From the human T2T-CHM13v2.0 reference genome, Homo sapiens, in NCBI RefSeq assembly GCF_009914755.1, contig NC_060925.1: 64,000 nucleotides of DNA, one strand, 5' to 3'. The notes under the pieces were generated by a model that worked only from the letters and a program-made list of their open reading frames with translations, was not told where the DNA came from and searched no databases. How positions within the stretch are numbered: the stretch's first letter is position 1; every line of letters begins with the position of its first letter. Shown in pieces: positions 7,922-9,276 of this stretch. The position numbers and the translations under genes were made by a program.

Positions 7922-8454
7922 TCAAAAAAAAATTTTTTTTTAAATAAATAAATAACAATAGGCCGGGCGCAGTGGCTAACGCCTGTAACCCCAGCACTTT
8001 GGGAGGCCGAGGCGGGCAGATCACGAGGTCAGGTGATCAAGACCATCCTGGCTAACAAGGTGAAACCCCATCTCTACTAAAAACACAAAAATTAGCGGGG
8101 CGTGGTGGCGGGCGCCTGTAGTCCCAGCTACTCAGGAGGCTGAGGCAGGAGAATGGCATGAACCCAGGAGGCAGAGCTTGCAGTGAGCCGAGATCGCACA
8201 ACTGCACTCCAGCCTGGGCAACAGAGCAAGACTCTGTCTCAAAAATAAATAAATTAAATAAATAAATAAATAAACAATAATAAGGTTATCAAAAGGTTGA
8301 AAGTAAAATTATAGGAAAAGATAAGCTATGCAACATAAACCAAAAGAAGCTTATGTTAAAATCAGACACAGTTGACTTGAAGGCAAAAAGCATTACTAGA
8401 AATAAGGACATTTTATACCAATAAGTTTAATTCACCAGGAAGTTAAAAAATAAA

Positions 8455-8810
8455 TTTATTTATTTATTTATTTATTTATTTATTTTAGACAAACAGCTTT
8501 ATTTGAAAGACGGGGGACAGCCAAGTCCCCCTGACCCTGCGGTCCTGGCAACGTCGGTCTCAGGCGTAGGAGGACCAGTGTCCTGCGGAGAGAAAAATAG
8601 GGTTAGGGGTCTGCAGCCGGGGTCAGGAGTCAGGGGTCAGACCACGCGAGCAGCCACACCCGGGGGAGGCCGCGGCCCCTGTCGGGGCCTGGGTTTCACC
8701 GTCGCACATGGCGGCAGCACGCGGTGAGCTGAGGCCCCCGGAGGCTCTTGCGCGCCGAATTTCACCCGCGGCCACGGCCAAAACCGGGGGTGATTTTCAA
8801 CCAACGCCGG
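8455..8810 (-). pseudogene. Retrocopy of SNORA78 (ACA64) plus the downstream SNHG9 intron remainder and last exon, with poly(A) tail
   Basis: Minus strand reads GTTGGTTGAAAATCACCCCCGG...GGTGAAACCCAGGCCCCGACAGGG (recalled SNORA78-like), then branch point CCCTAAC, TTTTTCTCTCCGCAG|GACACTGGTCCTCC (recalled SNHG9 last exon), AATAAA (8503-8498), and an A-tail decayed to (TAAA)n. Confidence 0.8.
8677..8805 (-). ncRNA. H/ACA snoRNA-like copy (SNORA78/ACA64 family); functionality unknown
   Basis: ~129 nt, GC-rich, ACA box at 8682-8680 three nt from the predicted 3' end. Similar to recalled SNORA78. H box not confidently located. Confidence 0.65.
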
Positions 8811-9276
8811 AAAACATTTCTAAATTTGTATGCACTTAACAAAACCTCAAATAATATACAGCACCGAGCTACAAGGAAAAATAGACAAGTTCACAATCAT
8901 CGTAGGAGATTTAGCACACCTCTCTCAATTAATAGAGTATACTTCTTTCAGAACTGATAGAAAAAGTCAGGGCCAGGTGCAGTAGCTGATGCCTGTAATC
9001 CCAGCACTTTGGGAGGCTGAGATGGGAGGATTGCATGAGGCTGGAGTTCAAGACCAGCCTGGGCAGCATAGGGAGACCCTCATTTCTACAAAAAAAAAAA
9101 AATTAGGGGCGGGCGCGGTGGGTAACGCCTGTAATTCCCAACACTTTGGGAGGCCGGGGCGGGCCTGAGTTCAGGAATTCGAGACCAGCCTGGCCAACAT
9201 GGCGAAACCCCGTCTCTACTAAAAGTACAAAAATTAGCTGGGTGTGGTGGCGGGCACCTGTAATCCCAGCTACTCA

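What the first reader, a model, noticed from the sequence alone, without database searches (positions are those of the whole stretch)
8455..8810. Fossil of a snoRNA-headed polyadenylated RNA (SNORA78 + SNHG9 intron tail + last exon)
On the minus strand the insert starts ~5 nt before a SNORA78/ACA64-like sequence (8805-8677). It continues through unspliced intron with an intact branch point and acceptor (CCCTAAC...TTTTTCTCTCCGCAG, 8608-8583), then a terminal exon with AATAAA and an A-tail. It sits inside an old L1 with only a partial TSD (AAATTTA). The template was neither mature snoRNA nor spliced mRNA, but looks like a 5'-snoRNA-protected, 3'-polyadenylated species (SPA-like, or a host-RNA decay intermediate). 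This suggests SNHG9 made such RNA in the germline. Retrocopies of this general type have been described. Many CpGs remain, unlike in the flanks.
Basis: partly seen in the sequence, partly recalled or inferred. Interest (0 to 1): 0.7.

Follow-up and report, generated by a model that had tools for sequence, protein, structure and literature searches.

The report
Known SNORA78 snoRNA retrocopy (ACA64b)
This is an old, dead retrocopy of the SNORA78 small nucleolar RNA together with the rest of its host gene's intron, last exon and A-tail; it is a kind of element described in 2006, and this very copy was already catalogued then.

Summary
Window 8677-8805 (-) is a full-length ACA64/SNORA78 match (121.2 bits). 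The insert runs 8810 to about 8455. It comprises 5 templated bases, the snoRNA, the rest of the SNHG9 intron with branch point and acceptor, the last exon with AATAAA, and an (AAAT)n tail. Its source is chr16:1.985 Mb, at 90% identity.

Of 7 copies elsewhere in the genome, 4 start at the same base. For two of these the start is fixed by their own target-site duplications, for this copy by relatives of the target repeat, and for the fourth by alignment only. No copy is spliced.

It is not new. Weber 2006 (PMC1687206) defines exactly this as a "Type-3 snoRNA retroposon" and proposes the same mechanism. Luo & Li 2006 (PMC1802619) list this locus as ACA64b. RefSeq annotates it.

Two points are left over. 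The copy keeps 28 CpGs, against 2 and 0 in its flanks. The "old L1" name for the flanks could not be verified. Interest is low.

The parts
8811..8827 (-). Probable 5' copy of the target-site duplication (AAATTTAGAAATGTTTT). It is part of the flanking old repeat.
   Evidence: Ten relatives of the repeat read straight through this stretch into the sequence that follows the insert. The sequence was read.
8806..8810 (-). Five templated bases (CCGGC) ahead of the Rfam snoRNA start. This is the recurrent 5' end of the retrocopies.
   Evidence: Identical to parent L001:839-843. The chr4 and chr16b copies have the same first base, as does the chrX-2 copy. In minimum-free-energy folds these bases extend the basal helix of the 5' hairpin.
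8677..8805 (-). ACA64/SNORA78 box H/ACA snoRNA copy (RefSeq LOC124900457; ACA64b of Luo & Li 2006).
   Evidence: Rfam RF01225, 121.2 bits, full length. It differs from the parent by 8 substitutions and 2 one-base insertions over 129 columns, which is 92.2%. Luo & Li give 92.3%.
8583..8676 (-). Unspliced remainder of the SNHG9 intron, with branch-point-like CCCTAAC (8608-8602), a pyrimidine tract and the acceptor CAG (8585-8583).
   Evidence: Aligns to parent L001:971-1066. Read.
8486..8582 (-). Copy of the SNHG9 terminal exon, with AATAAA at 8503-8498. It ends at the parent's poly(A) site (GTCTA).
   Evidence: Aligns to parent L001:1067-1165. The chr1, chr4, chr6 and chrX-1 copies all end at the same GTCTA.
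8455..8485 (-). A-rich tail, now an (AAAT)n microsatellite.
   Evidence: Read. It is absent from the parent, which continues with unrelated sequence.
8445..8457 (-). Degenerate 3' copy of the target-site duplication (AAATTTA + TTTTTT). After it the old repeat resumes (AACTTCCTGGTGAATT...).
8286..8454 (.). Flank: old dispersed repeat, family not determined.
   Evidence: 39 other genomic places at 69-86% identity. Collinear with relatives across the insertion point.
8811..8971 (.). Flank: the same old dispersed repeat, cut off by an Alu from about 8972.
   Evidence: 13 other genomic places at 70-84% identity. Alu-type SRP match at 8972-9218.

Best explanation
The element is an L1-mediated retrocopy: a Type-3 snoRNA retroposon in the sense of Weber 2006.

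Proposed template: an SNHG9 RNA whose intron was never removed. It was cleaved and polyadenylated at the normal SNHG9 poly(A) site. Its 5' part (a roughly 17-nt first exon plus 49 nt of intron) had been removed by 5'-to-3' trimming. The trimming stopped at the assembled H/ACA snoRNP, leaving 5 bases ahead of the annotated snoRNA start.

Proposed insertion: L1 proteins reverse-transcribed this poly(A)+ RNA in trans into an old repeat on chr1. My rough estimate of the date is 25-45 million years ago.

Shown by the data: the source locus, the exact content, the retained intron, the tail, the insertion into one contiguous target, and the recurrence of the 5' base.

Inferred: the trimming enzyme, the snoRNP block, the cellular compartment and the use of L1.

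The copy lies antisense to UFC1 and about 8.5 kb upstream of the DEDD start (both from the supplied annotation), with no sense-strand host gene. It is most likely a non-functional fossil.
For: Source and content:
- 90% identity to chr16:1985138-1985463, collinear from 5 nt before the snoRNA to the poly(A) site.
- The parent shows TATAAA at L001:748-753, a pyrimidine-rich start at 773, a GT donor at 790, the snoRNA at 844-970, the acceptor at 1066 and AATAAA at 1146.

Retroposition:
- There is an A-rich tail that is absent from the parent.
- The insertion interrupts a repeat that is contiguous in 10 relatives.
- The other copies have clean TSDs of 13-15 nt.

Defined 5' end:
- 4 of 7 copies start at L001:839: chr1, chr4 and chr16b, and chrX-2.
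- chr16b ends at the 3' splice site followed by GGGGGGAAAAAA. It is therefore an excised intron with the same trimmed 5' end.
- Folds place CCGGC in the basal helix of the 5' hairpin.

No spliced copy: 0 of 7.

Literature:
- Weber 2006 states that Type-3 snoRTs start at the mature snoRNA 5' end, then carry the whole downstream intron, the 3' exons and poly(A). He explains them by cleavage of the pre-mRNA and exonucleolytic degradation up to the snoRNA (PMC1687206, passages).
- Luo & Li 2006, Table 1, row 106, lists ACA64b on chr1 at 92.3% as a retrogene (PMC1802619, passages).
- Cytoplasmic, dyskerin-bound, 5'-truncated, oligo-dT-primed H/ACA intron-retaining fragments exist in human cells (PMC9394076, passages).
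Against: - The TSD of this copy is only partial, and its tail is a microsatellite rather than pure A.
- The 5' end lies 5 nt upstream of the Rfam/RefSeq snoRNA start, not on it. Whether -5 is the true mature end or a precursor end was not tested.
- chrX-1 and chr11 start near the parent's transcription start. Untrimmed unspliced SNHG9 RNA was therefore also a template. The chr6 copy is a plain 5' truncation. Truncation of such RNA is thus possible in principle.
- No RNA data, primate orthologues or methylation data could be consulted.
- The age rests on 9 non-CpG substitutions in 314 columns and on a substitution rate recalled from memory.
Confidence: 0.87

Rival explanations
1. The 5' end was made by a different route. 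Splicing stalled after step 1. The discarded lariat-exon 2 intermediate was debranched and then trimmed 5'-to-3' to the snoRNP. It kept the rest of the intron, exon 2 and the poly(A) tail.
For: The DNA outcome would be identical. The branch point and acceptor are intact in the copy. The intron-only chr16b copy shows that intron-derived species with this 5' end existed. Decay of such intermediates is established knowledge from yeast (recalled, not read here).
Against: Nothing in the sequence distinguishes this from trimming of a never-spliced pre-RNA. The full-length unspliced chrX-1 copy shows that wholly unspliced poly(A)+ RNA existed.
Confidence: 0.15
2. The copy is an ordinary 5' truncation of an intron-retaining SNHG9 transcript by L1 reverse transcriptase. 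The match to the snoRNA boundary is chance, or an RT stop at a small upstream hairpin.
For: chr6 is a plain truncated copy, and chrX-1 is a full-length unspliced one. By eye, the parent has a 6-bp inverted repeat (GTCTCG...CGAGAC) ending just before CCGGC.
Against: Four of 7 copies share the same first base, and their 3' ends are of two kinds. The RT had already passed the far more stable GC-rich snoRNA hairpins. The chr16b copy is an excised intron, not a truncated mRNA.
Confidence: 0.04
3. The template was a capped transcript started at an internal promoter just upstream of the snoRNA inside the SNHG9 CpG island.
For: The parent region is CpG-rich (31 CpGs, o/e 0.85), and such regions can start transcription at scattered sites (general knowledge).
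Against: chr16b ends at the 3' splice site, which requires splicing of an RNA with an upstream 5' splice site. chrX-1 and chr11 instead mark a start about 25 nt after a TATAAA box.
Confidence: 0.04
4. The snoRNA copy is a working gene: an expressed SNORA78 paralogue.
For: It scores 121.2 bits with all modelled pairs canonical and the ACA box intact. Luo & Li mark ACA64b as foldable into hairpin-hinge-hairpin-tail, and found an EST for the sister copy ACA64c.
Against: It lies antisense to UFC1 with no sense-strand host gene in the supplied annotation. Luo & Li list no EST for ACA64b. It has 14 copy-specific substitutions, a rate like that of the other branches. Two of them are in strands the Rfam alignment shows as internal-loop (pocket) positions.
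Confidence: 0.07

Closest known systems
Type-3 snoRNA retroposon (snoRT), Weber 2006, PLoS Genet 2:e205 (PMC1687206; passages read)
   Same: It starts at the snoRNA 5' end, carries the entire downstream intron, then the host gene's 3' exon and a poly(A)-type tail, and is inserted with a TSD. The proposed origin is the same: cleavage plus exonucleolytic degradation up to the snoRNA, with normal polyadenylation.
   Different: The start is 5 templated bases upstream of the annotated snoRNA end. Weber mentions a few untemplated bases. The host has only one downstream exon, so there is no downstream splicing to show. ACA64 does not occur in Weber's main text (0 occurrences), and his supplements could not be opened.
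ACA64b-e retrogenes, Luo & Li 2006, Nucleic Acids Res 35:559 (PMC1802619; passages and Table 1 read)
   Same: This is the very locus: row 106, ACA64b, chromosome 1, 92.3% identity, 'Retrogene', foldable. Sister copies ACA64c (chr4), d (chrX) and e (chr16) are the ones I found. ACA64c is their Figure 1C example of a retrogene with retroposed 3' flank.
   Different: They do not flag ACA64b as having a poly(A) tail. In the passages read, they do not say that the 3' flank is the SNHG9 intron plus last exon. They do not list the chr11, chr6 or second chrX copies.
cSPA RNA and cytoplasmic H/ACA 'snoRNA-retaining transcript' 3' fragments (PMC9394076, passages; review PMC11028025, passages)
   Same: These are RNAs with a snoRNP-protected 5' region, a retained intron and a poly(A) tail. 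They are dyskerin-bound and cytoplasmic, which is the sort of RNA L1 proteins could copy.
   Different: For EIF4A1, 5'-RACE put the end at the exon before the retained intron, not at the snoRNA. SNHG9 and SNORA78 are not mentioned in that paper (0 occurrences). In the passages I read, neither paper links such RNAs to retroposons.
SPA lncRNAs of the Prader-Willi region (recalled, not read here; mentioned in PMC11028025)
   Same: 5' snoRNA-ended, 3' polyadenylated.
   Different: Those are long nuclear RNAs capped by box C/D snoRNPs and made by read-through. This one is a ~330-nt H/ACA-headed host-gene remnant known only as a DNA fossil.

Membership tests
Type-3 snoRNA retroposon (Weber 2006) | Starts at the 5' end of the mature snoRNA | tested here: met
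   The start is at 8810, 5 templated bases before the Rfam start. Three other copies have the same base. Those bases pair in the basal helix. The true mature end was not determined.
Type-3 snoRNA retroposon (Weber 2006) | Contains the entire downstream intron of the parental host gene | tested here: met
   8676-8583 aligns to parent L001:971-1066, through the acceptor.
Type-3 snoRNA retroposon (Weber 2006) | Followed by the host gene's 3' exon(s) and a poly(A) tail after a poly(A) signal | tested here: met
   Exon copy at 8582-8486, AATAAA at 8503-8498, (AAAT)n at 8485-8455.
Type-3 snoRNA retroposon (Weber 2006) | Target-site duplication at the insertion point | tested here: inconclusive
   The 5' copy (8827-8811) is clear from relatives of the repeat. 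The 3' copy keeps only AAATTTA plus a T run.
Type-3 snoRNA retroposon (Weber 2006) | Lineage-specific: empty site in outgroup species | not testable with these tools
   No primate genomes are held. Only paralogous 'empty' copies of the target repeat could be shown.
Box H/ACA snoRNA ACA64/SNORA78 (Rfam RF01225) | Covariance-model score above the gathering score; two hairpins; ACA 3 nt from the end | tested here: met
   121.2 bits against a threshold of 35, model positions 1-128, no non-canonical pair, and ...CGACAGGG at the end.
Box H/ACA snoRNA ACA64/SNORA78 (Rfam RF01225) | Expressed, dyskerin-bound, guides pseudouridylation | not testable with these tools
   No expression data. No sense-strand host in the supplied annotation. 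No EST is listed for ACA64b.
SPA / cSPA RNA (as the template) | An RNA with a snoRNP-protected 5' end and a poly(A) 3' end exists in cells | not testable with these tools
   This is inferred only from DNA copies. SNHG9 is absent from the one experimental paper read.
L1-mediated retrocopy | A-tail, TSD of 7-20 nt, A-rich start of the TSD at an L1 endonuclease-type site | tested here: inconclusive
   The tail is present. The TSD is partial. The putative TSD starts AAATTT after TAC. Sister copies have clean 13-15-nt TSDs starting with A runs.

The most novel reading that the evidence does not exclude
The copy is more than a fossil. By carrying a 325-bp piece of the SNHG9 CpG island (28 CpGs, o/e 0.81), retroposition seeded an orphan CpG island that has stayed largely unmethylated in the germline for tens of millions of years. 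It may now act as a regulatory element between DEDD and UFC1.

Separately, the whole SNHG9 series (4 of 7 copies with one shared 5' base, 0 of 7 spliced) would be a fossil record. It would show that H/ACA-snoRNP-headed poly(A)+ RNA, not the spliced lncRNA, was this gene's main germline L1 substrate.
Probability: 0.25. Interest if true: 0.35.

Novelty: already known. Interest (0 to 1): 0.15.

Why it matters
It matters little by itself. The class (Type-3 snoRNA retroposon), its proposed origin and this particular locus (ACA64b) have been in print since 2006, and RefSeq carries the snoRNA copy.

The modest value added here is threefold:
- The retroposed 3' flank is identified as the SNHG9 intron remainder plus the last exon.
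- The shared first base is shown in four copies, which pins an RNA 5' end that could be looked for in modern data on snoRNA-headed poly(A)+ RNAs.
- Such retrocopies can serve as fossils of RNA ends, both the processing end and the host gene's transcription start.

Tried and rejected
1. L1 identity of the flanks. Pfam on 10 open frames around the site gave nothing relevant. Pfam on 66 open frames (70 aa or longer) from three 9.5-kb relatives of the repeat gave no L1 domain. The only hit was an unrelated Gag_p30 match at L020:9105-9452. The family name stays unverified, because no repeat library is available here.

2. An internal calibration of CpG decay using the window's Alus. The run that worked used 18 Alu rows and gave 61 of 299 inferred CpG sites retained. 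Its apparent non-CpG divergences of 9-24% show the alignment is too poor to use, so I draw no conclusion from it.

3. Segmental duplication as the origin was rejected. The homology stops exactly at the RNA ends, a tail is present, and each copy has different flanks.

4. One retrocopy copied from another was rejected. chr1 shares 3 derived substitutions and a 7-base insertion with the parent, against chr4, chrX-1 and chr16b.

5. Fold z-scores for the snoRNA with the 5-base leader are not significant (-1.6). This is expected for GC-rich RNA. I use only the pairing pattern, as a weak hint.

They may hold ACA64 examples.

7. Searches for a printed link between cSPA-type RNAs and retroposons (passages) found none. 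This covers only the held open-access library.

Full report
**What is there**

On the minus strand, window 8677-8805 matches Rfam ACA64 (RF01225) over the whole model. The score is 121.2 bits (gathering score 35), E 1.2e-26. No pair is flagged as non-canonical, and ACA lies three bases from the end.

Read, the strand runs as follows:
- repeat-derived flank ...AAATTTAGAAATGTTTT (to 8811);
- CCGGC (8810-8806);
- the snoRNA (8805-8677);
- 94 bases ending in CCCTAAC...CTCTCCGCAG (8608-8583);
- 97 bases with AATAAA at 8503-8498, ending GTCTA (8486);
- (AAAT)n to 8455;
- then AAATTTATTTTTT and the repeat again.

**Source**

A search of the window's own genome with the element found 7 places. The same 7 were found using the parent as query. 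The best place outside the window is chr16:1985138-1985463, at 90% identity and E 2.8e-116.

That locus (L001) carries the genome's best ACA64 match, 132.7 bits. It reads like a small snoRNA host gene:
- TATAAA at L001:748-753;
- a pyrimidine-rich CTCTCCTTTTC from 773;
- a GT donor at 790;
- the snoRNA at 844-970;
- the acceptor CAG ending at 1066;
- AATAAA at 1146.

A review table gives SNHG9 as the host of SNORA78 at 16p13.3 (PMC6912041, passages). That ACA64 is the older name of SNORA78 is recalled, not taken from a call.

The window copy is collinear with the parent from L001:839 to the poly(A) site. The unspliced 96 bases of intron downstream of the snoRNA are included.

**It is an insertion of an RNA copy**

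The parent has no A-run at the poly(A) site, whereas the copy has a tail.

Both flanks are an old dispersed repeat, with 13 and 39 other genomic places at 69-86% identity. I aligned ten relatives with the two flanks, keeping the flanks as separate fragments. The target is one contiguous stretch...ACAAATTTAGAATTGTTAT RTCTTCCTGGTGAATT..., and the insert sits right after the stretch matching GAAATGTTTT.

The insert therefore begins at 8810, to the base. Its 3' copy (8457-8445) is degenerate, so 'partial TSD' is a fair description.

I could not confirm that the repeat is L1. No L1 domain turned up in 10 open frames near the site or in 66 open frames from three 9.5-kb relatives.

**The family of copies**

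An Rfam-model search of the genome added one more place, a second chrX copy. That makes 7 copies besides the parent.

| Copy | Locus | Start | End | TSD / notes |
|---|---|---|---|---|
| chr1 (this one) | window | L001:839 | poly(A) site | partial TSD |
| chr4 | L002 | L001:839 | poly(A) site | perfect TSD AAAAAGAAACCAC; long A tail |
| chrX-2 | L021 | L001:839 (by alignment only) | poly(A) region | about 70% identity; no recognisable TSD or tail |
| chr16:12.33 Mb | L004 | L001:839 | exactly at the 3' splice-site CAG, then GGGGGGAAAAAA | TSD AAGTGGTAYATCCTA; Weber's Type 2 |
| chrX-1 | L003 | pyrimidine-rich start near L001:774 | poly(A) site | unspliced throughout; TSD about AAAARAATGG |
| chr11 | L006 | about the same start as chrX-1 | two bases after the snoRNA, then an A-rich tail | - |
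| chr6 | L005 | last 12 intron bases | exon 2 and tail | TSD AAAGTGATTTAAGG; plain 5' truncation |

Two results follow:
- 4 of 7 copies share one first base, and 0 of 7 are spliced.
- The chr16:12.33 Mb copy derives from an excised intron yet has the same 5' base. That base is therefore a processing end, not a transcription start or a chance stop of reverse transcriptase.

In minimum-free-energy folds of the parent, this copy and the chr4 copy, the five extra bases pair with the bases just after the first hairpin and lengthen its basal helix. The fold z-scores themselves are not significant. This suggests that -5 is the real edge of the protected particle, and that the Rfam boundary is slightly short.

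**Mechanism**

The most likely template is an unspliced SNHG9 RNA that was polyadenylated at its normal site. Its first ~66 bases had been removed by 5'-to-3' degradation that stopped at the H/ACA snoRNP. L1 proteins then copied it in trans.

The source, content, tail, target and recurrence are shown by the data. The nuclease, the snoRNP block, the compartment and L1 are inferred.

A variant I cannot exclude is a debranched lariat-exon 2 splicing intermediate trimmed in the same way.

**Age and CpGs**

Over 314 columns shared by the parent, chr1 and chr4:

| Branch | Substitutions | Of which CpG transitions |
|---|---|---|
| chr1-specific | 14 | 5 |
| chr4-specific | 19 | 9 |
| parent-specific | 15 | 2 |

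With a recalled neutral rate of about 1-1.5e-9 per site per year, the 9 non-CpG changes on the chr1 branch suggest roughly 25-45 million years. The error is wide.

chr1 shares three derived substitutions and a 7-base insertion with the parent, against chr4, chrX-1 and chr16b. It therefore left the parent lineage after chr4 did.

CpG counts:

| Sequence | CpGs | o/e |
|---|---|---|
| parent | 31 | 0.85 |
| chr1 | 28 | 0.81 |
| chr4 | 24 | 0.73 |
| chr16b | 5 | 0.25 |
| chrX-1 | 0 | 0.00 |
| window flanks | 2 and 0 | 0.43 and 0.00 |

Per site, CpG transitions on the chr1 branch run at about 2.3 times the rate of other changes (5 per 62 sites against 9 per ~252 sites). For chr4 the ratio is 3.7, and for the parent 0.6. 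For methylated DNA I would expect about tenfold (recalled). The copy may therefore have been under-methylated in the germline. The numbers are small, and my Alu-based control failed.

**Comparison with what is known**

[quoted passage not shown] He also describes the Type 2 form that ends at the 3' splice site, tails rich in G, and rare copies processed at the 3' end but not the 5' end. These match chr16b and chr11.

Luo & Li 2006 (PMC1802619, passages and Table 1) list:
- ACA64b: chromosome 1, position 159377621 in their assembly, 92.3%, 'Retrogene', foldable;
- ACA64c (chr4), ACA64d (chrX) and ACA64e (chr16).

The genome holds only one chr1 copy, and I count 92.2% identity over the snoRNA. 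ACA64b is therefore this locus. RefSeq annotates it as LOC124900457 (supplied annotation).

Modern work shows cytoplasmic, dyskerin-bound, 5'-shortened, polyadenylated H/ACA intron-retaining fragments, and likens them to cSPA RNA (PMC9394076, passages). SNHG9 is not mentioned there. In the passages I read, neither that paper nor a 2024 review (PMC11028025) ties such RNAs to retroposons. Searches found no paper that does.

**Verdict**

The element, its class, its proposed origin and this very locus are already in print. It is a non-functional fossil in all likelihood: antisense to UFC1, no sense-strand host, and no EST listed by Luo & Li.

The open side-issues are small: possible germline hypomethylation of the CpG-rich insert, the true mature 5' end of SNORA78, and the unnamed flanking repeat.

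Noticed in passing
L021:554-881 (G000:C23:86575853-86576180, + strand): A second chrX copy of ACA64 (80.9 bits) with downstream intron, exon 2 and AATAAA, at about 70% identity. It is not among ACA64b-e of Luo & Li. Its alignment to the parent also begins at L001:839. No TSD or tail is recognisable.
   Followed up: partly
L003 (chrX:79.29 Mb) and L006 (chr11:119.34 Mb) versus L001:748-790: Two old copies begin within a few bases of a pyrimidine-rich CTCTCC motif, 25 nt after a TATAAA box in the parent. They are fossil evidence for a proximal SNHG9 start that would leave a first exon of only about 17 nt. I could not compare this with the annotated SNHG9 exon 1.
   Followed up: partly
L006:529-715 (chr11): This copy runs from the host gene's start through the upstream intron to 2 nt past the snoRNA 3' end, followed by an A-rich tail. 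It is processed at the 3' end but not the 5' end, like the rare U99 exceptions in Weber 2006.
   Followed up: partly
L002 (chr4) versus window copy: Luo & Li call ACA64c (chr4) ape-specific and do not list ACA64b (chr1) as such. In my alignment, however, chr1 shares 3 derived substitutions and a 7-base insertion with the parent that chr4 lacks, so chr4 should be the older copy. Either the rhesus site was lost or unassembled, or these characters are homoplasies.
   Followed up: no
L004:605-610 region (chr16:12.33 Mb copy, 3' end): The intron-only copy ends at the splice-acceptor CAG, followed by C, six Gs and then six As. This G-rich tail is of the kind Weber linked to a TRAMP-like polymerase.
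   Followed up: no
L001:~650-770 (parent promoter): By eye, the parent has a tandem duplication of about 60 bases, each unit carrying a TATAAA box (ccgcgg...gggaatc...ctataaacg...). A further TATAAG lies near L001:576. There may be several alternative starts.
   Followed up: no
L001:863 and L001:912 (parent snoRNA): Two of the 15 parent-specific substitutions lie inside the working snoRNA itself (alignment columns 19 and 69). All retrocopies keep the older base there.
   Followed up: no
L020:9105-9452 (chr3:51.88 Mb): A retroviral Gag_p30 match (E 7.4e-13) in an unrelated locus fetched only as a relative of the flanking repeat.
   Followed up: no
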